This document shows, piece by piece, positions 1 through 13,214 of a DNA stretch of 13,214 nt; position 1 is the first letter of the stretch; every line of letters starts with the position of its first letter. This DNA is from a virus (taxonomy: Duplodnaviria > Heunggongvirae > Uroviricota > Caudoviricetes). The stretch lies in IMG/VR virus record IMGVR_UViG_3300029064_000011; one strand, written 5' to 3'. The notes below the pieces were generated by a model. It was not told where the DNA came from, made no database searches, and saw only the letters and a list, made by a program, of their open reading frames with translations. A program made the position numbers and the translations under genes.

Positions 1-1461
1 ATGAAAAAATTACTGCATCTTTTTTTCCCGCTCTCGCTGCGGGTACGTTTTCTGTTAGCAACGGCAGCAGTAGTATTGGTGCTTTCGCTTGCCTACGGAA
101 TGGTTGCGCTGATCGGTTATAGCGTCAGTTTCGATAAAACCACGTTTCGGCTGTTACGTGGCGAGAGCAATCTGTTCTATACCCTTGCGAAGTGGGAAAA
201 CAATAAGTTGCATGTCGAGTTACCCGAAAATATCGACAAGCAAAGCCCCACGATGACACTAATTTATGATGAGAACGGGCAGCTTTTATGGGCGCAACGT
301 GACGTGCCCTGGCTGATGAAGATGATCCAGCCTGACTGGCTGAAATCGAATGGTTTTCATGAAATTGAAGCGGATGTTAACGATACCAGCCTCTTGCTGA
401 GTGGAGATCATTCGATACAGCAACAGTTGCAGGAAGTGCGGGAAGATGATGACGACGCGGAGATGACCCACTCGGTGGCGGTAAACGTCTACCCGGCAAC
501 ATCGCGGATGCCAAAGTTAACCATTGTGGTGGTGGATACCATTCCGGTGGAGCTAAAAAGTTCCTATATGGTCTGGAGCTGGTTTATCTATGTGCTCTCA
601 GCCAATCTGCTGTTAGTGATCCCGCTGCTGTGGGTCGCCGCCTGGTGGAGTTTACGCCCCATCGAAGCCCTGGCAAAAGAAGTCCGCGAACTGGAAGAAC
701 ATAACCGTGAATTGCTCAATCCAGCCACAACGCGAGAACTGACCAGTCTGGTACGAAACCTGAACCGACTGTTAAAAAGTGAACGCGAACGTTACGACAA
801 ATATCGTACGACGCTCACCGACCTGACCCATAGTCTGAAAACGCCACTGGCGGTGCTGCAAAGTACGCTGCGTTCTCTGCGTAGTGAGAAGATGAGCGTC
901 AGTGATGCTGAGCCGGTAATGCTGGAGCAAATCAGCCGCATTTCACAGCAAATTGGCTACTACCTGCATCGTGCCAGTATGCGCGGCGGGACATTGCTTA
1001 GCCGCGAGCTGCATCCGGTCGCCCCACTGTTGGACAATCTCACCTCGGCGCTGAACAAAGTGTATCAACGCAAAGGGGTCAATATCTCTCTCGATATCTC
1101 GCCAGAAATCAGCTTTGTTGGTGAGCAGAATGATTTTGTCGAAGTGATGGGCAACGTGCTGGATAACGCCTGTAAATATTGCCTCGAGTTTGTCGAAATT
1201 TCTGCAAGGCAAACCGACGAGCATCTCTATATTGTGGTCGAGGATGATGGCCCCGGTATTCCATTAAGCAAGCGAGAGGTCATTTTCGACCGTGGTCAAC
1301 GGGTTGATACTTTACGCCCTGGGCAAGGTGTGGGGCTGGCGGTAGCCCGCGAAATCACCGAGCAATATGAGGGTAAAATCGTCGCCGGAGAGAGCATGCT
1401 GGGCGGTGCGCGGATGGAAGTGATTTTTGGTCGCCAGCATTCTGCGCCGAAAGATGAATAA
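1..1461 (+). CDS. phoQ: Sensor histidine kinase PhoQ of the PhoP/PhoQ two-component system, complete 486 aa
   Basis: Full-length ORF with ATG start. Two hydrophobic segments flank a periplasmic domain containing an acidic patch (EDDDDAE), followed by a phospho-acceptor H-box ([10 protein letters not shown]) and ATPase motifs ([20 protein letters not shown]). Matches enterobacterial PhoQ as I remember it. Confidence 0.96.
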
Positions 1462-2374: not shown

Positions 2375-2575
2375 CGTCGGGTCCTTCCTGGAATTATGGC
2401 CCGTTACGGGGCGGCGACCTCGCGGTTTTTATCTGTTTATGAGAATTTTCCGGCAAAAGTCAGATCCGATCTTCTTCTCTGTAACAGACTGTTTAACAAT
2501 GAAAATATTAAAAAAAGAAAGGATCTGACACGAGGCATTTTAGCCAGAAAATGCCATTATCAGATCCTTTCTCAT
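2375..2575 (+). other. Lambda-type cos site, copy A (cosQ-like, cosN, full cosB-like region), + strand orientation
   Basis: 2399-2453 reads cccgttacggggcggcgacctcgcggtttttatctgtttatgagaattttccgg, closely matching the lambda cos junction as I remember it. Cohesive-end 12-mer GGGCGGCGACCT at 2408-2419. Upstream cgggtccttcctgg resembles lambda cosQ. Downstream has ttcttcttc, aaaagaaagga and nested inverted repeats (AAAGGATCTGA 2516-2526 / TCAGATCCTTT 2561-2571 around GGCATTTT-agccag-AAAATGCC 2534-2555) that parallel the lambda cosB region. Confidence 0.8.
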
Positions 2576-2599: not shown

Positions 2600-3142
2600 T
2601 TACTCGCCTTTCTTCTGTAGCAACTTTTCCGGTACGTTTCCGGTTGTTTCTTTCAAGTAATCAGCCAGTATCTGTGGGAGGTTGTCGGCAACTCTGGCAC
2701 TGGCATTACAGGCTTTAACCACTTCCCTTTTAAGCCTGTCCAGCATGGCGGGGGTAATCTGTGGGAAGCTCCTTTGCATAGTAAGCGGGAGGCTGTCCAT
2801 GATTGATGAAATCTGACTCGCCAGCTTTGAAAGCGCGTACAGGCAAAACTCAGTATCAATCACGTCACCGCGATCGCGATCGTTTTTAAGTTCCTGCGCC
2901 TCTGCCTGTGCTGTCAGTAATCTGATCCTGACTCGTAAAAGTTCATCATCGTCAATCTCGCCTTTGTCGTTTATAAGCTGGCTAATTGCATTGTTAACCC
3001 TATTTTCTATCACGCTGGCAACATCATAAAACGCCTCACGGCCTTTACGCTCAACGGGAGTTACTCCCCACTTGTCGAACGCTGTCGCACTTACACGGCA
3101 GCTTTTCGCCATGTTTTTTTTGTTCATCAGATGAGATTTCAT
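2600..3142 (-). CDS. terS: Terminase small subunit, lambda Nu1-like, 180 aa
   Basis: Same length class as Nu1 (181 aa). Central and C-terminal segments (LTAQAEAQELKNDRD..., FCLYALSKLASQISSIMDSLPLTMQRSFP, LKREVVKACN) align with the Nu1 segments LTRAQADAQELKNARD, FCTFVLSRIAGEIASILDGLPLSVQRRFP, LKRDIIKAMN from memory. The N-terminal HTH region is more divergent. ATG at 3140-3142. Confidence 0.88.
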   Translation of the reverse strand: MKSHLMNKKNMAKSCRVSATAFDKWGVTPVERKGREAFYDVASVIENRVNNAISQLINDKGEIDDDELLRVRIRLLTAQAEAQELKNDRDRGDVIDTEFCLYALSKLASQISSIMDSLPLTMQRSFPQITPAMLDRLKREVVKACNASARVADNLPQILADYLKETTGNVPEKLLQKKGE

Positions 3143-3253: not shown

Positions 3254-3317
3254 TCATAAATAGCGAAAATCCGCGAGGTCGCCGCCCCGTAACGGGTCCA
3301 TATGCCGGAAAGGACCC
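3254..3317 (-). other. Lambda-type cos site, copy B (cosQ-like plus cosN, short divergent cosB), minus orientation, directly upstream of terS
   Basis: Minus strand reads tacgggtcctttccggcatatggacccgttacggggcggcgacctcgcggattttcgctatttatga. The ACGGGTCCTTTCCGG and GGGCGGCGACCTCGCGG blocks match lambda cosQ/cosN as I remember them. The 12-mer occupies 3276-3287 on the + strand as its reverse complement. Sequence diverges from lambda cosB after tatttatga. About 140 nt separate cosN from the terS ATG. Confidence 0.8.
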
Positions 3318-4121: not shown

Positions 4122-5177
4122 TTAACCAATTTTGACGGTAACAAATTTGCGAATGTCTGCCGGCACCGGCTGCGGTGCGCTGTGCGTCTGCACGTACTCA
4201 ATCGCCGGATCGCCGTCCTCAATCCAGTTTTTCGGGTAGTACATGTTTTGCGTTGCGCCCGTTCTTACCGCTTCCTGATCCATAATCGCACCATAAGCAA
4301 CCAGCCCTTTATTGTTGGTGTTGCCCAAGACCAGCAAATCAGGCTCAAGGAAATGTTTTTCGGTGCCGTCGCTGTCGGCGTATTTGCCGGAATAGACGAT
4401 AAGGGCAATATCGCCCAGATAGCCTTTAAAGCTCACCACTTCGCCCAGGTTTTTACAGGCCAGTTCTGCGGCGGATTCTGAACCACGGGAAAGATCGTAC
4501 AGTTCGCGGAATTTTTTAAAGCTGCGTAACGTGCGCCATACCTCAGCGCCCATAATCATGACGTTTGCGGGGCAATTGCCCTGATCCGCATAAAGCTCGA
4601 TATCATAGATTGGATCGTGGGTTTCTTTGTCCTGCTCGGACCATTTACGGCCTTTGGCCTGCTCTATGATGTTGTTTTCCGGCATCTTCCAGTCGATTTC
4701 ATAGCGTTCTATGCCTTCGCCCTCAATGATGTTTTTTCCGGTCGTTACCGCATTTACCGCCAGCCATTCAACACGCGCTTTAATAGCGTTTACCTGGCGG
4801 CGCATGTTGCCAGTAATCAGGCGCATACGGCGATAGGTTGGGTCGTTAAGCTGTGCCGGATCTTCTCCAGCCATGCGCATGATGGTTTTTGTTGGATCGA
4901 TTTCGTGCTTTGGCTTCATGTAGCCAGGTTTAATCGTGCTGGTTTCGTACCCTTTATCGCGCTGTACCTGGCTACCAACCATAGGCGAGCAAAACGCTGA
5001 CATAGTGACTTCTTCGGTGTCCAGGTTATCCAGCATGATGTTTTGGGTGTTGAATGTCGCTACTTTCGGGAAAAACAGCGTGGTAAACAGCGGACTAAAT
5101 TTAAATTCCGCAATATCCCCGCGATTCAGGTACGCAAAAAGCTGGTGAGTGTTAAGTGCCGTTGCTTTGCCTGCCAT
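4122..5177 (-). CDS. Major capsid protein, lambda gpE-like, 351 aa
   Basis: Collinear similarity to lambda gpE over the full length as I remember it: FKFSPLF vs FKFDPLF, KPGYMKPKHEIDP vs TPGYVKPKHEVNP, DPTYRRMRLI vs DPAYRRRRII, WRTLRSFK vs WALFRSFK, SFKGYLGDIALIVYSGKY vs SYKGMYGDVAIVVYSGQY, YPKNWIEDGDPA vs YPKNWVTTGDPA. GGGGGTGA SD. Start overlaps the stop of the upstream 68-aa gene (TAATG). Confidence 0.92.
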   Translation of the reverse strand: MAGKATALNTHQLFAYLNRGDIAEFKFSPLFTTLFFPKVATFNTQNIMLDNLDTEEVTMSAFCSPMVGSQVQRDKGYETSTIKPGYMKPKHEIDPTKTIMRMAGEDPAQLNDPTYRRMRLITGNMRRQVNAIKARVEWLAVNAVTTGKNIIEGEGIERYEIDWKMPENNIIEQAKGRKWSEQDKETHDPIYDIELYADQGNCPANVMIMGAEVWRTLRSFKKFRELYDLSRGSESAAELACKNLGEVVSFKGYLGDIALIVYSGKYADSDGTEKHFLEPDLLVLGNTNNKGLVAYGAIMDQEAVRTGATQNMYYPKNWIEDGDPAIEYVQTHSAPQPVPADIRKFVTVKIG

Positions 5178-5383: not shown

Positions 5384-5418
5384 AGTAAGAAATTCCTCTT
5401 CGACTTAAAAAATCATAA

Positions 5419-5468
5419 CTGGATGTTCATCCAGCTCTGATTATAATCATGATTGCATTTTGTGCAAT
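5419..5468 (-). promoter_or_regulatory. Putative sigma70 promoter of the capsid operon with two overlapping palindromes
   Basis: On the minus strand: -35 TTGCAC (5462-5467), 16-nt spacer, perfect -10 TATAAT (5440-5445, inside the palindrome GATTATAATC). Palindrome ATTGCA-N5-TGCAAT (5452-5468) overlaps the -35. Palindrome CTGGATG-TT-CATCCAG (5419-5434) sits at the predicted start site. Confidence 0.45.
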
Positions 5469-5544
5469 GATATTGAGTTGTGTTGCAAATTATGAAATGA
5501 TTATCCCGATCATGTGTGTCAGTGCACCAAAAAGCCTCATATGC

Positions 5545-5586
5545 AAAAGCCCGATAAGCCACCTCTGACCTTATCGGGCTTTTTTA
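5545..5586 (+). terminator. Strong hairpin with flanking A and T runs (intrinsic terminator, mainly + direction)
   Basis: GCCCGATAAG (5549-5558), 11-nt loop, CTTATCGGGC (5570-5579), then TTTTTT. Preceded by AAAA, so weakly bidirectional. No annotated + strand gene upstream. Confidence 0.45.
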
Positions 5587-5760
5587 TCTGCCTGCAAAGA
5601 TGTCGAACAAAAATTAACCATAACCATCATCTTTTTTGCATCAAAACAATTAAAAACAATAAATTACGCTCATGATGATGATGACGATAAAATCACAAAA
5701 ATGCGCTTTTTTCCGCGCCTCCCGCCCCGTGTTCAGGCCCACCCCGCCAGGAGGCCCCGT

Positions 5761-5782
5761 AAAAAAGCCGGATTGCTCCGGC
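5761..5782 (-). terminator. Rho-independent terminator after the SSB-like gene
   Basis: Minus strand GCCGGA-gcaa-TCCGGC hairpin (5767-5782) followed by 6 U (5761-5766). Nearly the same sequence module as the terminator at 3320-3343. Confidence 0.55.
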
Positions 5783-5798
5783 TTCTGTCACTCGTCGC

Positions 5799-6221
5799 TT
5801 AAAACGGTATGTTATCCCCGTACGGATCATCATTCCCCGCCTGTTGTTTTGCCCTGTTCAGCGCGTCAGTAGCCTGGCCCTGTTGACCTTTTTTGCCGCC
5901 CAGTCGCGCCGTTCGCGCACTGATTACACTGTCTGCGATAACCTGCCAGCCCTGCCGCGTTTCTCCGTTCTGCCCAGTCCACTGGCTGATCTGCATGTTA
6001 CCCGCCACGCTCAGGAGTTCACCCTTGCGGTGCCTTTCCAGTGCTTCGGCCTGTCTGCCAAATGCCAGGACGGATAACCACATCGTCGCCGTTCCGTCAT
6101 CTGCCTGGCTGCACGGAAGGGGGACCGCCATACGTGCCAGCGTCATTGGTGTGCCCTTGCTGGTCTGTTTTACCTGCGGGTCGTCCACCAGCCGCCCGTA
6201 AGCTGCTATCTGTGCTGTCAT
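5799..6221 (-). CDS. Single-stranded DNA-binding protein (SSB-like), 140 aa
   Basis: Short OB-fold-like N-terminal region, Gly/Gln-rich linker, and the acidic C-terminal tail ending DDPYGDNIPF, typical of bacterial and phage SSBs (DDDIPF). ATG overlaps the stop of the upstream gene (ATGA). Confidence 0.75.
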   Translation of the reverse strand: MTAQIAAYGRLVDDPQVKQTSKGTPMTLARMAVPLPCSQADDGTATMWLSVLAFGRQAEALERHRKGELLSVAGNMQISQWTGQNGETRQGWQVIADSVISARTARLGGKKGQQGQATDALNRAKQQAGNDDPYGDNIPF

Positions 6222-6496
6222 GATTCCACCTCTCCGGTTTTAACGTTGATGGTTGTTACCTGTTCCGCTTCGGCAATCTCCCGCTCTGTCAGCGTGGCAA
6301 AATTTGCCGCCGTCGTGGTCATGAATGCGCTTATCAGTTCGGGATGTGCTTTCGCGTATCCTTCCCCCGCGTGGCGGTCTATCGTTCTGATTGCCACCTT
6401 TAAAGCGTGCTCTGTCATGTCTAACGCGCGATATTTCGGTTCTGTTCTGTCTCTGCGTTTTTTGAGTGATTTATTAAATTTCCCTGAAGTGTGCAT
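6218..6496 (-). CDS. Hypothetical protein, 92 aa
   Basis: ORF between the origin and the SSB gene, stop overlapping the SSB start. The SD is rather far from the ATG, so the start is uncertain. No family recognised. Confidence 0.45.
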   Translation of the reverse strand: MHTSGKFNKSLKKRRDRTEPKYRALDMTEHALKVAIRTIDRHAGEGYAKAHPELISAFMTTTAANFATLTEREIAEAEQVTTINVKTGEVES

Positions 6497-6543
6497 ATTT
6501 ATTTTTACCCCCTCGTTTAAAAAGTTTTGAGTTGTGCCTCCCC

Positions 6544-6772
6544 TTGTCTACCTTATCTACCTTAGTGGCCCTCATACCAGTAATGGCGCGGCTTTCAGCG
6601 GGGTAGAGTGCTTTTATCCACTATCTACCCCGTGTCTACCTCCCTGTCTGATTCAGGTAAAATCAGGTAGAGAGGGTAGATAGTGGGTAGACAGTAAAAA
6701 AAGGTTATCTACCTAACTTAATGCACTGAATTAAATGTATTTTTCTTTACTCAGGTAGACAGGGTAGACAGC
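6544..6772. repeat. Iteron array, putative replication origin
   Basis: At least 11 copies of GGTAGA(C/T)AG or its complement in both orientations (for example 6545-6552, 6554-6561, 6622-6629, 6632-6640, 6666-6672, 6674-6681, 6685-6693, 6705-6712, 6754-6762, 6764-6772), with an AT-rich stretch at 6693-6750. Lies immediately 3' of the primase-helicase gene. Confidence 0.7.
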
Positions 6773-6784
6773 AATTACAAAAAA

Positions 6785-8539
6785 TTATAAAAACGCGTCG
6801 CACTCGTCTGTTGTTATTGCGTTAGTCTGCGTTACTCCCTTAACTTTCCGCGTAATATATTCATGTCCGTAAACTTTCGCGGCTGGCTTCATAGCCTTGC
6901 CAAAGTCATTTACGTTTAGCGGTTTGCTCCTGCCTGCGTACGCCATAAACGCCAGATAGACGCGGTAAAGGCTGTTTCTGGTCGTGTACTTCACTGAATC
7001 GCCACCGCCGCCCATCATCAGGCCGCGTGCTTCCTCCAGAAAATTCAGGAACTGGCAAAACTCAATAACCGGATCCGTCTGTTGCTTTATTGCCAGAGCT
7101 TCATCACCGTCACGCTGTTCCAGTAGTAAAGCCCGTGCCTTCTCAGGGTCGGTAAAGTTCGCCAGCAATCGGCGGATAATGACAGGGATTTCAGCCGCGA
7201 TCTTTTCCGGTAGCTCCCTGTCTTTTTCGGCCTCACTGACGATATTGTCGAAACGGAAAATCACGCGACGACGTGCCACACCTCCGGCCCGTTCGGTGAA
7301 TATCATCGGGTTATTGTTGGTCGCCAGCACCACCGCCCTGATTACCGCCGTGAAACGCTTTTCGTATTTCGGGTTAATTTCCACGGGGTCACCGCCCGTG
7401 ATTTTCTTGATGCCCGTTCCTTCGCCTGTATATTTCGGCTGGTCAGCCAGGACGATAAGACGACTCCCGACAACCTGCGCACGTCCACCAGCATCATCAA
7501 GCGATGTCATTTCAGCGCTTACCGTGTTCTGTTTCCCTGCCAGAAGGCTAGCTATGTGTGTGAATGTACTTTTACCGCTCCCGCCGTCTCCGGTGGCCTC
7601 AATAAACATCTGCCAGTCGTACCGGTTCGCCATAATCATGTACAGCGCGGCACATATACGCATCATCTTGCGCGGGTCTTTTCCGGCTGCGTGCTCAAGC
7701 CATTTATGAAAGTTTGGCGCGTTATCGCGGATGTTCTCCCCTGGTGCTGGTGGCGTGTACTCAATGCCGTTGTGCGTGGTGATCCAGTTCTCCGGCGTGT
7801 GCGGGGAAAATTCCCCCGTTTTCAGGTCAAGCGCACCATTGGCGAACGGCAACAAATCGCCGGACGGCTCGCCCATTGGTTCGGCAATAACTTTTAACGC
7901 TTCCACGGCGTTATTGATTACGCGCTTGCTGAAAGTGGCCCTGTGCTCTGAATAGATCGCCACCATTTCGCGGCTAAGTTCCATTGTGCTGACCGGACAC
8001 CATACCCCGCCGCGCCATACGTGAACGATTTCACTTTCAGGATGTACGCAAACGCCATCAAAGCGATCGGCAAGCAGCTGCGCGCGCTCACTGTCCGCCA
8101 TCTGCGAAAGTTGCGCCTTTTGCTTTACCGGAAGCTCAATGACCAGACCATCAGAAAGATTCTGGCGCTCACGGGCCAGATATTCGCGCCAGTTCTCCAC
8201 CTTCTGACCGTGCATACCATCAGGGTAAAAATTTGCATCCTGTACGCCTGCCGCCGCCAGCTTCTGACCAATCGCCTTTATCATTACTGGCGCAAGATAT
8301 CCGGCCCTGAATATGCGCACGGATTTTCTGCCTTCCGGCACAATTTGCAGCTTATCCAGTTCGGATAACTGCTGCTCCCCAAGCCACACAGGAGTCTCAT
8401 TATCTCCGGCCATACGCGCGTCATGTTCCTGCCATTGTTTTGCGTGTGACCAGGCATCACTACCCGCAAAAATAATGACTTCTGTTTCTTTGTGTTTTAT
8501 GCCGCGTGACTGCTGTTTTACGTTCGGTGCCAGTTTCAT
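6785..8539 (-). CDS. Primase-helicase replication initiator (P4-family phage/plasmid primase C-terminal domain with D5-like NTPase), 584 aa
   Basis: Walker A TGDGGSGKST and Walker B-like RLIVLADQ in the C-terminal half. Domain order and size are typical of satellite pri-rep proteins. Origin iterons directly downstream. Start overlaps the upstream 99-aa ORF. Confidence 0.88.
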   Translation of the reverse strand: MKLAPNVKQQSRGIKHKETEVIIFAGSDAWSHAKQWQEHDARMAGDNETPVWLGEQQLSELDKLQIVPEGRKSVRIFRAGYLAPVMIKAIGQKLAAAGVQDANFYPDGMHGQKVENWREYLARERQNLSDGLVIELPVKQKAQLSQMADSERAQLLADRFDGVCVHPESEIVHVWRGGVWCPVSTMELSREMVAIYSEHRATFSKRVINNAVEALKVIAEPMGEPSGDLLPFANGALDLKTGEFSPHTPENWITTHNGIEYTPPAPGENIRDNAPNFHKWLEHAAGKDPRKMMRICAALYMIMANRYDWQMFIEATGDGGSGKSTFTHIASLLAGKQNTVSAEMTSLDDAGGRAQVVGSRLIVLADQPKYTGEGTGIKKITGGDPVEINPKYEKRFTAVIRAVVLATNNNPMIFTERAGGVARRRVIFRFDNIVSEAEKDRELPEKIAAEIPVIIRRLLANFTDPEKARALLLEQRDGDEALAIKQQTDPVIEFCQFLNFLEEARGLMMGGGGDSVKYTTRNSLYRVYLAFMAYAGRSKPLNVNDFGKAMKPAAKVYGHEYITRKVKGVTQTNAITTDECDAFL

Positions 8540-8835
8540 TTTTTACCCCTGAATCCGTTAATCATGGTTTTCGGCTTCTGGATGTTTGCCCGTGCCCTGG
8601 CGTTGCTGGTGGACACGTTATGCGGCGCGGTCTGTACCAGAGAAAAATCACGCCGGAACTGATAAACAGGCATCACGCAATCATATTCGTAACCTTCACG
8701 GCGGTAGGTTACGCGCCGTTCTTCCACGCCCTTAATCATTACCGTGCCGCCGTACTGGTCGCGGTAAATATCGCCGCGCGTAAATTTAGGGTGAGTGTTG
8801 CCACTGGCAGTTAAGCCAGAATATTTAAGTTTCAT
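8536..8835 (-). CDS. Hypothetical protein, 99 aa
   Basis: ORF with GGAGAA SD. Stop overlaps the primase start. Confidence 0.5.
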   Translation of the reverse strand: MKLKYSGLTASGNTHPKFTRGDIYRDQYGGTVMIKGVEERRVTYRREGYEYDCVMPVYQFRRDFSLVQTAPHNVSTSNARARANIQKPKTMINGFRGKK

Positions 8836-9074: not shown

Positions 9075-9300
9075 GGCTTACATCCTCAGGAAATTTTCTT
9101 CTATAACGCGCCTCTGCCACATATTCCGCATAATCGGCGGCGATATTCAGTACATCAAGCCCCGTTGATTTATATTCTCTCGTGGAAAGTAAGAAAAAAG
9201 CCGCTCTAATAAGTTCTGGCATTGACGAAAGCGCATCAGCCGCATCATCAGGAACGCCGGAAAATTCCTGTTTCAGGGAATTAAAACGATCATCACGCAT
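9067..9300 (-). CDS. Hypothetical protein, 77 aa
   Basis: ORF with AGGGGGG SD. 3' end overlaps the next gene by 8 nt. Confidence 0.5.
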   Translation of the reverse strand: MRDDRFNSLKQEFSGVPDDAADALSSMPELIRAAFFLLSTREYKSTGLDVLNIAADYAEYVAEARYRRKFPEDVSHA

Positions 9301-9658
9301 GTTTACCCCCCTGAATGACCTGATAACCGCAACTGGTCAGCAACTCGATAAATTCCGGCAGTGTGCCGAAACAGCAATCATCACGCAGCCGTTCACAGGA
9401 TACCTCGACGCCGTTTTCGTAGTGACTCACCATACATCCGGTAAAATGCAGATCATCATCGTGATGGCTCGTTGACGGCTTAATCAGTCGCGCACGTTCC
9501 GCCAGTTCCAGCAATGCTTCAACGCTTCCGGCAATTGCACCATCCGGCAGGTGATAATTACGCACTATGCGCCCGTTCTCCACATTGACCAGCAACTGCC
9601 CGGTAAATTTCTCATCAAACTGAATGCTGTTAAGGTCAGAAATTGACAGATTATGCAT
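9293..9658 (-). CDS. Hypothetical protein, about 121 aa (second ATG of the ORF chosen)
   Basis: ORF track gives 9293..9676, but the ATG at 9656-9658 is preceded by AGGAGG at optimal spacing (start MHNLSIS...). Confidence 0.5.
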   Translation of the reverse strand: MHNLSISDLNSIQFDEKFTGQLLVNVENGRIVRNYHLPDGAIAGSVEALLELAERARLIKPSTSHHDDDLHFTGCMVSHYENGVEVSCERLRDDCCFGTLPEFIELLTSCGYQVIQGGKHA

Positions 9659-9875
9659 GGTGCACCTCCTGCACATCAGCCATGATAATTTTTCCGGCCT
9701 TATCCAGTGCCTGATCGGCTTTTAGCTGCACAAATGCTAAATAATGGAAGATGCATTCTGATTCTCTGGCTGCGTGTTTATGCGCCCTGTCAGCAATAAC
9801 AGAAATATCAATAAGCGCGTGCATCAGCGTAGTGAGCGCGGCGGCGGCTGCGTCCGGTGTGGTTTTATTGCACAT
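9651..9875 (-). CDS. Hypothetical protein, about 74 aa (internal start of ORF 9651..9929)
   Basis: GGAGGGG SD precedes the ATG at 9873-9875 (start MCNKTTPD...). The longer upstream extension lacks an SD. Confidence 0.4.
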   Translation of the reverse strand: MCNKTTPDAAAAALTTLMHALIDISVIADRAHKHAARESECIFHYLAFVQLKADQALDKAGKIIMADVQEVHHA

Positions 9876-10095
9876 GTACCCCTCCGCATTTTTTTTCGTT
9901 AGAAATAAGCGTTCTTCTTTCCTGTTCATCGCTCAGGAATACGCAGACCTCACCGCTAAGGCGTTTAAGTAAGCCGATGATTGCCCCTGATTCGCTGTCG
10001 GTCATCATGCCAGGGTAATCCTCTGCCAGTGCGCAAATAACTTCGATTTGGTGGGCGCGTTCTGCTGCCTGTTGTAGTGTGATTTCCTGGCTCAT
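9865..10095 (-). CDS. Hypothetical protein, 76 aa
   Basis: ORF with GGGGGTAGG SD. Its ATG overlaps the stop of the upstream 66-codon reading frame (ATGA). Confidence 0.45.
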   Translation of the reverse strand: MSQEITLQQAAERAHQIEVICALAEDYPGMMTDSESGAIIGLLKRLSGEVCVFLSDEQERRTLISNEKKCGGVHVQ

Positions 10096-10292
10096 AAGCC
10101 TACCCCCTGACGAATACGGGCAGCAAATACCATCACGCAGCCAGCCGGAGATTGCTGGCGTGCTTCCTGTTCGCTGGTGGCCTCAATGGTAATCACGCGC
10201 GGTTGTGCCGTGCTCAGGGCGATAAAACGCCAGATGTATTTATTCAGGTTGTGCGAGTCCCGCCCTTGCGGGTGTGTGGTATGATTTCTCAT
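10092..10292 (-). CDS. Hypothetical protein, 66 aa, candidate first gene of the leftward operon
   Basis: ATG at 10290-10292 preceded by GAGGTAG. Stop overlaps the start of the 76-aa gene. This is the C-terminal in-frame part of the 428-codon ORF 10092..11378. Starts about 95 bp from the operator cluster. Confidence 0.4.
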   Translation of the reverse strand: MRNHTTHPQGRDSHNLNKYIWRFIALSTAQPRVITIEATSEQEARQQSPAGCVMVFAARIRQGVGL

Positions 10293-11378
10293 AGCTACCT
10301 CGATACTTTCGCTATCGTTGGTGGTTAGAAGCCCGGTTAGTGTTAGCGCACTGCCGGGTTTCGTCGTTTCTGCACCTTGCGCCAACAAGGTGTTGAACAC
10401 CAATTTAAACCCAGGTGTTAAACACGTCAAGTGTTGAACACTTATTTTTTTTCCTGCATACTGCATTTGTTTTTTATGAGGGGTACACCACATGGCGACA
10501 AAAGCGGTAAACGCAAAATCACAAACCGTTGCGGCAAGGGTTCCGCATGAAGTTATGAACAATGTTGAGGCGGTAAAAATGCCTGGCGAAAGTACGGGGC
10601 AATTTGTTACTGCGGCATTAAAACGAGAAGTTGAATATCGCCAGCGGCGCAAGGCCAAAGAACCAGAGTAATCACCATCAGCGCCGTGGTGTAAGGTATT
10701 ACGGCGCATTGCTATGCAGGACAACACAATGACCGATAAAGAATTGACCAAAACATTATCACCGGCACGGAAAAGACGGCGCAGAAAGATAGAGCATGAA
10801 TCAGAAAGATTCGCGCCATGTGCTTTTGCCCTTGAGCAATTCCTTAAAGAGTACAGGGAAAAGCGCTCATTGCAGGTATGGCAACGAACTGAACCAGACT
10901 GATTGCATTGCCCACCAGCCGCAAATGTGGCATTGTTGGCAATGCTCATGCGTTGGGGATAACGTGTAGCTTGTGTCGAGGGGCCACCGTAGCGGGTGGC
11001 CTTTGTTTTGCCCGTTATTCGGCAATTGTGGCGCTTCTCCACATGGTTGATATAATCCCACTGCTCAGATTCATTTTTTGCGCAGTAGGTTAATTGTTCA
11101 CAAAGGCGCTCCGGCAACGGGGCGCTTTTTGTTTTTATTAGTTTGTAGAAACCTGACTCAGAGATAATGCTCATATTCTGATTGCCGTCAGGGGTGTAAG
11201 TTAAATTTACTCCCTTTTTATCATCAAACATCTGCAACGCTCTGGCGTTAACAATATTGGTTTCACTCCCGCCAGTAAGGCCGGAAATAACCGGAATAAT
11301 TTCGGCAAAATTTTGCAGATTCTGTTTTTCAGGACGAACGAAGCCCCGCCCTTGTTCGGGAGAATATCCAGTATTCAT
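10092..11378 (-). CDS. 428-codon ORF, probably not one real gene; N-terminal roughly 115 codons resemble a BRO-N/antirepressor-like domain, the middle overlaps the + strand RHH cassette
   Basis: N-terminal part contains ISESGFYKLIKTKSAP, reminiscent of the BRO-N motif I-E-G-LY-LI-S-P. The rest has skewed Cys/Ser/Thr-rich composition and runs antisense through operators, the RHH gene and two + strand terminators. Weak SD at the 11378 ATG. Confidence 0.25.
   Translation of the reverse strand: MNTGYSPEQGRGFVRPEKQNLQNFAEIIPVISGLTGGSETNIVNARALQMFDDKKGVNLTYTPDGNQNMSIISESGFYKLIKTKSAPLPERLCEQLTYCAKNESEQWDYINHVEKRHNCRITGKTKATRYGGPSTQATRYPQRMSIANNATFAAGGQCNQSGSVRCHTCNERFSLYSLRNCSRAKAHGANLSDSCSIFLRRLFRAGDNVLVNSLSVIVLSCIAMRRNTLHHGADGDYSGSLALRRWRYSTSRFNAAVTNCPVLSPGIFTASTLFITSCGTLAATVCDFAFTAFVAMWCTPHKKQMQYAGKKISVQHLTCLTPGFKLVFNTLLAQGAETTKPGSALTLTGLLTTNDSESIEVAMRNHTTHPQGRDSHNLNKYIWRFIALSTAQPRVITIEATSEQEARQQSPAGCVMVFAARIRQGVGL
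10388..10442. promoter_or_regulatory. Three palindromic operator-like sites in a divergent promoter region
   Basis: GGTGTT-G-AACACC (10388-10400), GTGTT-A-AACAC (10414-10424) and AAGTGTT-G-AACACTT (10428-10442). The third overlaps a candidate rightward promoter: -35 TTGAAC (10433-10438), 17-nt spacer, -10 CATACT (10456-10461). Confidence 0.6.
10491..10670 (+). CDS. Ribbon-helix-helix (Arc/CopG-like) DNA-binding protein, 59 aa
   Basis: Not in the ORF track because it is under 60 aa; translated by hand as MATKAVNAKSQTVAARVPHEVMNNVEAVKMPGESTGQFVTAALKREVEYRQRRKAKEPE. The N-terminal strand-like RVPHEV followed by two helices is the classic RHH pattern. GAGGGG SD. The operator cluster lies immediately upstream. 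Confidence 0.6.
10714..10902 (+). CDS. Small, very basic hypothetical protein (58-62 aa), second gene of the + strand cassette
   Basis: ORF track entry 10714..10902. An AGGA SD favours the second ATG at 10729 (MTDKELTK...). Contains an RKRRRRK tract. Followed by an intrinsic terminator. Confidence 0.4.
   Translation: MQDNTMTDKELTKTLSPARKRRRRKIEHESERFAPCAFALEQFLKEYREKRSLQVWQRTEPD
10982..11009 (+). terminator. Rho-independent terminator of the + strand RHH cassette
   Basis: GGCCACC-gtagcg-GGTGGCC hairpin (10982-11001) followed by TTTGTTTT. Confidence 0.55.
11106..11136 (+). terminator. Second + strand rho-independent terminator
   Basis: GCGCTCCG-GCAA-CGGGGCGC hairpin (8 bp including one G-U pair, GNRA-like tetraloop) followed by TTTTTGTTTTT. 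Confidence 0.55.
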
Positions 11379-11984: not shown

Positions 11985-13214
11985 TTATATTTCTCTGGCT
12001 ATTGGCAATGTGGTTACGTTTTCATGTGTTCCCGCCAGTATCCCTAACCGCTCCGTCCACATATCCAGCGCGTCACGTTTCGCATCCAGATAACGGGAAT
12101 GGTTATAGACTCGTTGCATCCCTGGCATCTGATGACCTGTAAGCTGCTCCACGACGTGAGGATCCACGCCTAAATCGTTCAGCATCGTTGTAAAGGTGCG
12201 CCGGATGTCATGCAGTGACCAGTGAGGGTGTTTTAGCCTCCTGTGCGCTAATCTGCCGTACTGCGACACGCTTGTTTCCTGTTTCACTTCCCCCAGCAAT
12301 AAGCCCGTGTGCCTGTTCTGCTCCACCAGCTGCGTGACGAACGGCAGTATTGCTTCCGGTATGGGCCGGAATATTGCCACCTTCGTTTTGCTGTGTTCTT
12401 TCGGCACGGTCCAGAGCATTTCGGTAAAATCCCACTCGCTGATCTCCGATAACCTCAGTTCTACCGTCCGGCATCCGAAAACAATCAGGAGGCGGATTAG
12501 TGCGACGTAGTAAGGGGAAAATATTTTTTTGTCCAGTGCCTGCAATAATTCGCCAAGTTCTTTGGTGCTTAAGACACGCTCGCTTATATCCGGTTTTTTC
12601 CCAACGTCCGCCACACTCATATCATCAAGAACGTTGCTGATTGCATAGCGCCGCCTCCGGCAGAACTTAAGCGCCTGTTTGCACGTCTGTAGCAAGAATC
12701 CGGCAGTAACAGGCGTTCGCTTTGCCACCTGGTCAAAACAGGCCAGCCAGTGCCGTAGCTCGCATTTATCCAGCGGCATAGCACCAATGTGCTGTATTAC
12801 GTGATTATTAAGGCGCTTTTTCAGGGCGGCATAATCCACGCGGTTTTCCTTTACGTAAGACTCAAGCCAGTAGGTAAGCGCATCGCCAACCGTTACGGGC
12901 TTTAACGCTTTCTGTACGGTGTAATTCATCTCATGACGTGGATTTTTCCCCTCAGCAAGCCAAGCGCGACACTGTGCCGCTTTTTCCCTGGCAGCTTTCA
13001 GACTCAGATCAGGATAATTTCCCAGCTTAATCCGTTCCGGTCGTGCTCCCCTTCCCGTTCCGGCCCTGTAGGTGAAATACCAGGTTAAAAGGCCGCTGGT
13101 TGAATGCCTGACGCTCAGGTTTCCACCGTCATTAAGAAAGGCTGTTTTTTGGGCGGGTGTGCCGTTGATTTTCCTCAGCTGTGTATCGCTCAGTTTGTTA
13201 AGTGCTCTGCTCAT
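11985..13214 (-). CDS. int: Tyrosine recombinase, P4-type integrase, 409 aa; start codon at the last window base
   Basis: N-terminal arm-binding domain pattern (LSDTQLRK, NDGGNLSV, WYFTYR, LGNYPDLSLKAAREK) typical of P4-like integrases. C-terminal catalytic motifs HDIRRTF and RVYNHSRY. The N-terminal pattern suggests the ATG at 13212-13214 is the true start. Confidence 0.93.
   Translation of the reverse strand: MSRALNKLSDTQLRKINGTPAQKTAFLNDGGNLSVRHSTSGLLTWYFTYRAGTGRGARPERIKLGNYPDLSLKAAREKAAQCRAWLAEGKNPRHEMNYTVQKALKPVTVGDALTYWLESYVKENRVDYAALKKRLNNHVIQHIGAMPLDKCELRHWLACFDQVAKRTPVTAGFLLQTCKQALKFCRRRRYAISNVLDDMSVADVGKKPDISERVLSTKELGELLQALDKKIFSPYYVALIRLLIVFGCRTVELRLSEISEWDFTEMLWTVPKEHSKTKVAIFRPIPEAILPFVTQLVEQNRHTGLLLGEVKQETSVSQYGRLAHRRLKHPHWSLHDIRRTFTTMLNDLGVDPHVVEQLTGHQMPGMQRVYNHSRYLDAKRDALDMWTERLGILAGTHENVTTLPIAREI

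What the first reader, a model, noticed from the sequence alone, without database searches (positions are those of the whole stretch)
6544..6772. Iteron-type replication origin immediately downstream of the primase-helicase gene
Eleven or more GGTAGA(C/T)AG repeats in both orientations with an AT-rich core form a typical island origin. The motif is not the lambda ori, which suggests helper-independent replication specificity.
Basis: partly seen in the sequence, partly recalled or inferred. Interest (0 to 1): 0.45.

Follow-up and report, generated by a model that had tools for sequence, protein, structure and literature searches.

The report
Known replication origin of E. coli PICI
The repeat cluster is real and is the replication origin of a phage-inducible chromosomal island of the EcCICFT073 type, an origin whose near-identical copy was already shown experimentally in 2018 to drive replication together with the adjacent gene, so the finding is correct but not new.

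Summary
Observation confirmed. There are 11 exact GGTAGA cores (6 on +, 5 on -) within 6547-6768 and only 2 more in the other 13 kb. A 23%-GC stretch lies at 6714-6753, and the cluster starts 14 nt after the stop codon of the 584-aa 'primase' gene (6785..8539, - strand).

Interpretation supported, but already known. The window is an EcCICFT073-type PICI between phoQ and roxA. Its Pri-Rep protein is 580/584 identical to that of CFT073, and all 11 cores are conserved in CFT073. Fillol-Salom et al. 2018 (PMC6092414) described this origin type. They showed that pri-ori keeps a temperature-sensitive plasmid alive, while pri-Δori and Δpri-ori do so far less well. Their Δori primers remove the equivalent of window ~6474-6780.

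What I added:
- The number, position and orientation of the repeats are conserved across diverged alleles and genera, while the core changes (GGTAGA, GGTGAACA, GGTATACA and others).
- The core tracks the C-terminal domain of the protein, which is homologous to the P4 α origin-binding domain (PDB 1KA8).
- 6666-6771 is collinear with the P4 ori. 6544-6640 resembles a P4 crr unit.
- The protein lacks the zinc finger and EGYATA primase motifs of P4 α, so 'primase' rests on the name only.

The parts
6785..8539 (-). Initiator gene ('Pri-Rep', 584 aa). It comprises a truncated Toprim-like N-terminus (aa 1-150), D5_N (153-282), an SF3 helicase P-loop domain (about 300-470) and a C-terminal origin-binding winged-helix domain (488-579).
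   Evidence: Pfam D5_N, DUF5906 and Pox_D5. TIGR01613. PDB 7OLA, SaPI5 PriRep5, E 3.8e-15 over aa 194-432, and PDB 1KA8, P4 α origin-binding domain, E 7e-7 over aa 488-579. 580/584 identical to the EcCICFT073 protein. The N-terminus aligns only with P4 α aa 237-334.
6666..6771 (+). Module A, the P4-ori-like core. It holds three direct iterons (6666-6674, 6675-6683, 6686-6694), an A7 tract, one inverted iteron (6705-6713), an AT-rich stretch, and two direct iterons (6754-6762, 6763-6771).
   Evidence: Column-by-column alignment with P4 ori 9310-9413. Start-to-start spacings are 9, 11, 22, 46, 9 here against 10, 11, 24, 41, 10 in P4.
6714..6753 (.). AT-rich stretch (23% GC), the presumed site of first strand opening.
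   Evidence: An AT-rich stretch sits at the same place in all collinear relatives and in P4 ori.
6641..6665 (.). Spacer between the modules, with two decayed iteron copies (TCAGACAGG and GGTAAA).
   Evidence: Read from the sequence. Xenorhabdus and Rosenbergiella relatives have intact copies at these positions.
6544..6640 (.). Module B, the crr-like set. It holds two iterons on the - strand (6544-6552, 6553-6561), a 40-nt 57%-GC spacer with a conserved CCAGTAATGGCGCGGCTTTCAG, one iteron on the + strand (6602-6610) and two on the - strand (6621-6629, 6632-6640).
   Evidence: The corresponding module of the GGTGAA-type island L010 aligns with the 120-bp crr repeats of P4. In L008 the two modules are in the opposite order.
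6497..6543 (-). Leader and ribosome-binding site (GAGGGGG) of the next gene. It is not part of the repeat array.
   Evidence: Sequence. AAACTTTTTAAACGAGGGGGTAAAAATAAAxATG is conserved in relatives.
6218..6496 (-). 92-aa gene of unknown function that follows the origin (phrog_1231).
   Evidence: It is annotated as a hypothetical protein in relatives.
5799..6221 (-). Island-encoded single-stranded-DNA-binding protein, a likely accessory to replication.
   Evidence: Pfam SSB, E 4.9e-15.

Best explanation
The region 6544-6772 is the vegetative replication origin of an EcCICFT073-type phage-inducible chromosomal island. The 8-9-nt repeats (GGTAGAyA) are binding sites for the C-terminal winged-helix origin-binding domain of the protein encoded just upstream (6785..8539, - strand). 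When the island is induced, this protein is made and occupies the repeats on both sides of the 40-nt AT-rich stretch (6714-6753). It opens the DNA there and loads itself as an SF3 hexameric helicase, after which host enzymes and the island's own SSB carry out synthesis.

The array has two parts. Module A (6666-6771) is collinear with the ori of satellite phage P4. Module B (6544-6640) resembles a unit of P4's cis-required crr element and probably acts as an adjacent enhancer or second loading site.

Basis of each step. Shown by published experiment on a near-identical copy: ori plus the gene are needed and sufficient for plasmid maintenance without a helper. Shown here by comparison: the repeats are under selection, and their sequence tracks the C-terminal domain. 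Inferred by homology with P4 α and SaPI Rep: direct binding, melting at the AT-rich stretch and helicase self-loading. Open: who makes the primers.
For: Identity with the tested origin:
- The island sits at the same site as EcCICFT073.
- The protein is 99% identical and all 11 cores are conserved.
- The published pri-ori, pri-Δori and Δpri-ori test is, and its deletion limits map onto the finding.

Selection on the repeats:
- In seven collinear alleles, 51 of 66 core columns are invariant against 44 of 184 other intergenic columns (Fisher p 3e-14).

Conserved layout with changing core:
- The map 2<, AT-rich, 1>, 3<, 2>, 1<, 2> recurs in E. coli alleles.
- It recurs in many of the 37 loci with seven or more copies of one hexamer, out of 80 fetched from species-representative genomes (Shigella, Xenorhabdus, Klebsiella, Serratia, Aeromonas).
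- At least seven different cores occur across these loci.

Link to the protein:
- The nearest neighbour by the C-terminal domain has the same iteron class in 41 of 44 cases, against 32 of 44 by the helicase domain.
- The N-terminus does not track the core: L010 is 67% identical there but only 34% in the binding domain, and it uses a different core.
- The domain is homologous to the P4 α origin-binding domain 1KA8.
- L010, whose domain is much closer to 1KA8 (E 1e-23), uses P4's own iteron GGTGAACA.

Other support:
- Collinearity with P4 ori and crr.
- SaPI Reps bind iterons through a C-terminal winged helix just downstream of rep (PMC9371898).
Against: - No binding, melting or initiation-site mapping exists for this sequence or, as far as I could find in the searchable literature, for EcCICFT073.
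- In the published test, the ori deletion reduced colony numbers significantly but the text does not say it abolished them.
- The deletion also removed about 70 nt outside the repeat array.
- The domain-to-iteron association is not absolute. L027 and L064 have a P4-like binding domain but GGTAGACAGTT repeats. L015 and L016 are 96% identical in that domain yet have different repeats.
- The protein lacks recognisable primase motifs, so the priming step is unexplained.
- The role of module B is inferred from resemblance only.
Confidence: 0.9

Rival explanations
1. The repeats are mainly operator sites of a transcriptional regulator, or of the initiator acting as an autoregulator. On this view they control the downstream genes (orf92, ssb, capsid-like genes) rather than acting as an origin.
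For: The array lies directly upstream of the next gene, 47 nt before its start codon. Initiator binding sites often double as operators in other replicons (general knowledge).
Against: No sigma-70-like promoter and no terminator were found on the - strand in 6200-7000. The paper describes Gram-negative PICIs as transcribed unidirectionally. The layout matches P4 ori, which is not a promoter for a downstream gene. In L008 the array keeps its structure although the downstream gene is different. Deleting the region impairs plasmid maintenance.
Confidence: 0.05
2. Only module A (6666-6771) is the origin proper. Module B (6544-6640) is a separate cis-acting element like P4 crr: an enhancer, a copy-number or handcuffing site, or a second origin.
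For: Module A alone aligns with P4 ori. The module B equivalent of L010 aligns with the P4 crr repeats. The two modules are permuted in L008, which shows they are separable units. The P4 record annotates crr as cis-required for replication and places it immediately 3' of α.
Against: No experiment separates the two modules; the published deletion removes both. The similarity of the window's own module B to crr is one of position and pattern only.
Confidence: 0.35
3. The repeats are a packaging (cos/pac) recognition site for a small terminase.
For: The island encodes a Nu1-like small-terminase homologue, and repeated short motifs are typical of cosB/pac sites.
Against: Two exact λ cosN 12-mers lie elsewhere, at 2409-2420 and 3276-3287, flanking the Nu1-like gene. 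This matches the two functional cos sites published for EcCICFT073. The same repeat array also sits in a capsid-forming PICI with an unrelated P27-type terminase.
Confidence: 0.01

Closest known systems
EcCICFT073 pri-rep/ori replicon (Fillol-Salom et al. 2018, ISME J, PMC6092414)
   Same: Same chromosomal site (roxA/ycfD-phoQ) and same gene order. The initiator is 580/584 identical. The intergenic region is about 95% identical, with all 11 GGTAGA cores at the same positions. [quoted passage not shown]
   Different: There are a few point differences in spacers and in iteron flanks, for example GGTAGATAA against GGTAGACAG at 6705-6713. The window's island lacks the perC gene that CFT073 has after ssb.
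Satellite phage P4 ori and crr with the α protein
   Same: The C-terminal origin-binding domain is homologous (1KA8), as is the SF3 helicase. Window 6666-6771 has the same number, order, orientation and spacing of sites as P4 ori 9310-9413 and aligns with it. P4 also has an iteron element (crr) immediately 3' of its initiator gene. The iteron differs only in the two central bases: GGT-AG-ACA here, GGT-GA-ACA in P4.
   Different: In P4, ori and crr are about 4.7 kb apart (crr 4291-4590, ori iterons 9310-9413), and ori is not next to α. Here both modules are contiguous within 230 nt. The binding domains are only 31.5% identical. P4 α (777 aa) carries a zinc finger and the EGYATA primase motif, which this 584-aa protein lacks. 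I did not look here for P4's type 2 repeats.
SaPI origins (SaPIbov1, SaPI1, SaPI5) with Rep/PriRep
   Same: The origin lies immediately downstream of rep. It has short iterons in both orientations on either side of an AT-rich centre. The initiator is a self-loading SF3 helicase with a C-terminal winged helix that reads the iterons (PMC9371898). The helicase part matches SaPI5 PriRep5 (7OLA, E 3.8e-15).
   Different: The host is Gram-positive and the iteron sequences are unrelated. The SaPI C-terminal domain gave no sequence match to this protein's C-terminus; only 1KA8 did.
Plasmid iteron origins (RepA/π/RepE type: pSC101, R6K, F, P1)
   Same: Repeated initiator-binding sites next to an AT-rich unwinding region.
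   Different: Those iterons are roughly 17-22 bp, mostly direct repeats, bound by Rep_3-family proteins, and usually accompanied by DnaA boxes (general knowledge). Here the sites are 8-9 nt in both orientations, the initiator is a helicase, and the only DnaA-box-like 9-mer (TTATCCACT, 6615-6623) is not conserved in relatives.

Membership tests
PICI replication origin (EcCICFT073/SaPI type) | Lies immediately 3' of the island's rep or pri-rep gene. | tested here: met
   The stop codon is at 6785-6787 and the first repeat ends at 6771.
PICI replication origin (EcCICFT073/SaPI type) | [quoted passage not shown] | tested here: met
   6666-6713 and 6754-6771 flank the 23%-GC stretch 6714-6753. The sites at 6705-6713 (-) and 6754-6762 (+) face opposite ways.
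PICI replication origin (EcCICFT073/SaPI type) | Sits in an island with PICI gene content and its own attachment site. | tested here: met
   int, alpA-like, icd-like, DUF4222, pri-rep, ssb, gpE-like and gpD-like genes and a Nu1-like gene lie between roxA and phoQ. This is the site listed for EcCICFT073.
PICI replication origin (EcCICFT073/SaPI type) | Supports autonomous replication only together with the cognate initiator. | not testable with these tools
   Published for the 99%-identical CFT073 copy. It has not been done for this exact sequence.
P4-type ori | Type 1 iteron TGTTCACC (GGTGAACA). | tested here: not met
   The core here is GGTAGAyA. P4's sites are GGTGAACA. The two central bases differ.
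P4-type ori | Layout of three direct sites, one inverted site, an AT-rich stretch and two direct sites. | tested here: met
P4-type ori | Initiator with a DnaG-like primase domain, an SF3 helicase and a winged-helix origin-binding domain. | tested here: not met
   The helicase and the binding domain are present. The zinc finger and the EGYATA motif are absent, and the N-terminus aligns only with α aa 237-334.
P4-type ori | A second, distant cis-required element (crr). | tested here: inconclusive
   A crr-like module is present but adjoins the ori-like module. Whether it is required has not been tested.
Plasmid Rep_3/iteron origin | 17-22-bp direct iterons bound by a Rep_3-family initiator. | tested here: not met
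   The sites are 8-9 nt in both orientations. No Rep_3 hit appeared among the ten main ORFs scanned.
Phage λ ori | Four O-protein binding repeats inside the O gene. | tested here: not met
   The array is intergenic and has a different motif. No O-like gene was seen among the proteins scanned. The λ ori sequence itself is recalled from memory and was not aligned.

The most novel reading that the evidence does not exclude
The origin of EcCICFT073-type PICIs may not be a replicon type of its own but a compacted P4 replicon. On this reading, a P4-ori-like module and a P4-crr-like module are fused directly behind a P4-α-derived initiator that has lost its primase half, so priming must come from the host or from transcription. 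Specificity (and hence compatibility between co-resident satellites) would be reprogrammed by changing the two central bases of a GGT-NN-ACA site together with a few residues in the segment after the third helix of the origin-binding domain. [quoted passage not shown] I found no paper in the searchable library that notes the collinearity.
Probability: 0.45. Interest if true: 0.4.

Novelty: already known. Interest (0 to 1): 0.15.

Why it matters
The finding re-discovers, from sequence alone, an origin that has been published and tested, so it adds little by itself.

The comparative work has modest value for people who study or engineer phage satellites:
- It gives a base-level map of the origin.
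- It shows that one layout is used with at least seven different site sequences across Enterobacterales and Aeromonas.
- It ties the site sequence to the C-terminal domain of the initiator.
- It links PICI origins to the P4 ori and crr.

These points could guide the design of compatible synthetic PICI vectors. They also raise a concrete question about who primes DNA synthesis when the 'primase' lacks primase motifs.

Tried and rejected
- Rfam scan of 6200-7000: only sub-threshold microRNA-precursor hits (about 22-24 bits against gathering scores of 59-90). These are caused by the inverted repeats and were rejected.
- Promoter and terminator scan: one + strand promoter-like match at chance level, nothing on the - strand, no terminator.
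- DnaA-box-like TTATCCACT at 6615-6623: not conserved in L004 and other alleles, so treated as a decayed iteron flank.
- cos/pac reading: rejected because the λ cosN sequences lie at 2409 and 3276.
- Primer rep-2c as printed in the supplement did not match CFT073 or the window. It differs from CFT073 by one missing C, so I placed it by eye.
- Literature search for TGTTCACC returned only unrelated primer lists. Two searches failed on the three-character rule.
- Single-sequence AlphaFold2 of aa 480-584 gave pLDDT 58 with three helices and a disordered segment where a wing would be. That is too weak to support the 'wing' idea, and I ran no fold search on it.
- Pfam on aa 1-160 at E up to 10 gave nothing.
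- I did not run the large protein-database searches, because the identity of the element was settled without them.

Full report
**1. The observation**

I read 6300-7000 and counted the motif. GGTAGA occurs 13 times in the window on both strands, and 11 of these lie between 6547 and 6768. Shuffles of the window give 2.7 on average and never more than 8. The chance that 11 of 13 hits fall into one 225-nt stretch is about 1e-16.

- Six copies read GGTAGA on the + strand: 6602, 6666, 6675, 6686, 6754, 6763.
- Five read GGTAGA on the - strand: 6547, 6556, 6624, 6635, 6708.
- GGTAGAyA(g/a) is therefore the better consensus.
- The stretch 6714-6753 is 23% GC against 49% for the window.

The array fills the gap between the stop codon of the - strand ORF 6785..8539 and the start of the - strand ORF 6218..6496.

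**2. What the surroundings are**

The window runs from phoQ (1..1461) into a tyrosine integrase (11985..13214, - strand). The - strand genes in between, in order of transcription, are:

- an AlpA-like regulator and an icd-like region with small ORFs;
- a DUF4222 protein;
- the 584-aa 'primase family' protein;
- the repeat array;
- a 92-aa protein and an SSB;
- a λ gpE-like capsid protein and a gpD-like decoration protein;
- a Nu1-like small-terminase homologue.

This is the gene order of the Gram-negative phage-inducible chromosomal islands. The supplementary table of Fillol-Salom et al. 2018 lists EcCICFT073 at exactly this site, ycfD(roxA)-phoQ.

I fetched the CFT073 region. The initiator proteins are 580/584 identical. 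The intergenic regions align without gaps at about 95% identity, with all 11 cores in place. The same 501 nt occur at 100% identity in many E. coli genomes. One of them is a capsid-forming PICI at tqsA in strain PCN033. About 600-760 of 5,426 complete E. coli genomes carry a recognisable relative of this region.

**3. What is already published**

The 2018 paper states that the region immediately 3' of the replication gene is the origin in these islands. [quoted passage not shown] It also reports a direct test for EcCICFT073:

- The rep gene plus putative ori were cloned in the temperature-sensitive plasmid pKO3-Blue and gave colonies at 44 °C in DH5α.
- The Δrep plasmid did not give colonies.
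- The Δori plasmid gave significantly fewer colonies.

The primers are in the supplement. The forward primer lies at window 8563-8583. The reverse primer of the Δori construct lies at window 6781-6801. The reverse primer of the full construct lies at CFT073 positions equivalent to window about 6474-6494 (the printed primer lacks one C).

The published 'ori' is therefore the equivalent of window about 6474-6780, which contains the whole finding.

**4. Independent comparative evidence**

I fetched seven diverged E. coli alleles and mapped the most frequent hexamer downstream of each gene. Read from the stop codon in the direction of the gene, the window's map is:

- 20<, 29<, AT-rich stretch, 75>, 97<, 108<, 117<, 148>, 159>, 181<, 227>, 236>.

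What the alleles show:

- Alleles whose proteins are 80-98% identical keep this map almost to the base, while the spacers drift.
- In seven collinear alleles, 51 of 66 core columns are invariant against 44 of 184 other columns (Fisher p 3e-14).
- In L010 the map is the same but every site reads GGTGAA(CA).
- In L009 the sites read GGTATACA.
- In L008 the two halves of the array are in the opposite order.

A scan of one genome per species gave 80 more loci. Many show the same layout downstream of the homologous gene in Shigella, Rosenbergiella, Xenorhabdus, Raoultella, Klebsiella, Pectobacterium, Serratia and Aeromonas. At least seven cores occur: GGTAGA, GGTGAACA, ATGAACACC, GGTATACA, GGTAGGG, AGTGACC and CGGACAGTT. 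A conserved arrangement with a changing site sequence is what one expects of binding sites for a co-evolving protein.

**5. Which protein reads the sites**

Domain evidence for the adjacent protein:

- It has D5_N, an SF3 P-loop domain and a Pox_D5 C-terminal domain.
- Residues 194-432 match the cryo-EM structure of SaPI5 PriRep5 (7OLA, E 3.8e-15).
- Residues 488-579 match the crystal structure of the P4 α origin-binding domain (1KA8, E 7e-7).

Association with the site sequence:

- Among the E. coli alleles, identity in residues 488-579 follows the site. It is 60% or more for all GGTAGA alleles and about 33% for the GGTATA and GGTGAA alleles.
- The N-terminus does not follow the site (L010 is 67% identical there).
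- Over 46 proteins, the nearest neighbour by this domain has the same site class in 41 of 44 cases, against 32 of 44 by the helicase domain.
- L010, whose domain matches 1KA8 at E 1e-23, uses GGTGAACA. This is exactly the 'ori type 1 repeat' annotated in the P4 genome.

The association is not perfect. L027 and L064 have a P4-like domain with GGTAGACAGTT sites. L015 and L016 are 96% identical in the domain but have different sites. The few differences in such pairs fall in the segment EY.TRKVKGVTQTN. A low-confidence model places this segment after the third helix. I treat the idea that this segment reads the central bases as a lead only.

**6. Relation to P4**

The P4 record places crr ('cis required region for replication') directly 3' of α. 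It places ori at 9086-9809, with type 1 repeats at 9310-9413. Those six repeats are arranged as three direct, one inverted, an AT-rich stretch and two direct. Their start-to-start spacings are 10, 11, 24, 41 and 10.

Window 6666-6771 has the same arrangement, with spacings 9, 11, 22, 46 and 9. It aligns with P4 ori column by column, including part of the AT-rich stretch. The second half of the array (6544-6640) corresponds in position to a module of L010 that aligns with the two 120-bp crr repeats of P4.

So the PICI origin looks like a P4-ori-like module joined to a crr-like module. The 2018 paper says this origin organisation is shared by no other known replicon and that P4 and PICIs evolved independently. 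I found nothing in the searchable literature that notes the collinearity. This is a refinement, not a new kind of element.

**7. Mechanism, and what is shown against inferred**

- Shown by experiment on the CFT073 copy: gene plus array are needed for helper-free plasmid maintenance.
- Shown here: the sites are conserved, the layout is conserved, and the site sequence tracks the C-terminal domain.
- Inferred from P4 α and SaPI Rep: the domain binds the sites, the AT-rich stretch melts, and the protein loads itself as a hexameric 3'-5' helicase.
- Open: priming.
  - Profile comparison aligns residues 3-152 only with P4 α 237-334, the tail of its primase domain (97% probability).
  - The zinc finger (CxxC at 34 and 56) and the EGYATA motif (213) of α lie before that point and have no counterpart.
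  - Pfam finds nothing in residues 1-160.
  - 'Primase-helicase' is thus supported only in its helicase half.

**8. Rivals**

- A pure operator or promoter role is unlikely. No promoter or terminator was found on the - strand, the layout is that of P4 ori, and the deletion phenotype argues against it.
- A packaging site is excluded. The two exact λ cosN sequences lie at 2409-2420 and 3276-3287, matching the two published functional cos sites.
- The array also sits in an island with an unrelated terminase.
- No RNA family matches.
- The open sub-question is whether module B is part of the origin or a separate crr-like element.

**9. Verdict**

The element is already known and has been tested experimentally in a near-identical copy, so interest is low. 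The most novel reading not excluded is the P4-derived, primase-less, reprogrammable origin described under the novel case.

Noticed in passing
window 6785-8539 (- strand), protein aa 1-152: The 'DNA primase family protein' has no recognisable primase catalytic part. Its N-terminus aligns only with P4 α aa 237-334, and the α zinc finger and EGYATA motif have no counterpart. Longer homologues (about 800 aa) in Xenorhabdus, Aeromonas and others keep them.
   Followed up: partly
window 2409-2420 (+) and 3276-3287 (-): Two exact copies of the λ cosN 12-mer GGGCGGCGACCT lie in inverted orientation on either side of the Nu1-like gene (2600..3142). They match the two functional cos sites published for EcCICFT073.
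   Followed up: partly
L015/L009 versus L016; L027/L064 versus L010/L063; Serratia L082/L085/L088: Origin-binding domains that are 70-96% identical go with different iterons (GGTATACA against ATGAACACC; GGTAGACAGTT against GGTGAACA against CGGACAGTT). The differences cluster in the segment aligned with window aa about 560-573. These are candidate specificity residues.
   Followed up: partly
L008 745-1071 (E. coli ETEC1734): A second cluster of nine GGTAGA sites (AACTGTCTACC type) lies about 450 nt beyond the first array, next to a RepA-helicase pseudogene. In the first array the two modules are in the opposite order.
   Followed up: no
L001 9001-9501 (E. coli PCN033, island in tqsA): A capsid-forming PICI with an HK97-type capsid, portal, HNH and large terminase carries the 501-nt segment spanning this origin, the primase 3' end and the next gene's 5' end at 100% identity. 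This shows that the replication module is exchanged between satellite types.
   Followed up: no
window 5384-5798: CFT073 has a perC gene after ssb. The window instead has 415 nt without an ORF of 60 codons on the - strand and no PerC-like translation. The same gap occurs in the closest relative, L002.
   Followed up: no
window 6578-6600: A GC-rich non-iteron segment, CCAGTAATGGCGCGGCTTTCAG, inside module B is conserved in the E. coli GGTAGA-type alleles. A CTGAAA motif also follows the iteron in the P4 crr repeats. Its role is unknown.
   Followed up: no
window 10092-11378 (- strand): A 428-aa open reading frame spans a region that relatives annotate as several short genes (icd-like, YlcI/YnfO, hypothetical). 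It is probably not one real gene.
   Followed up: no
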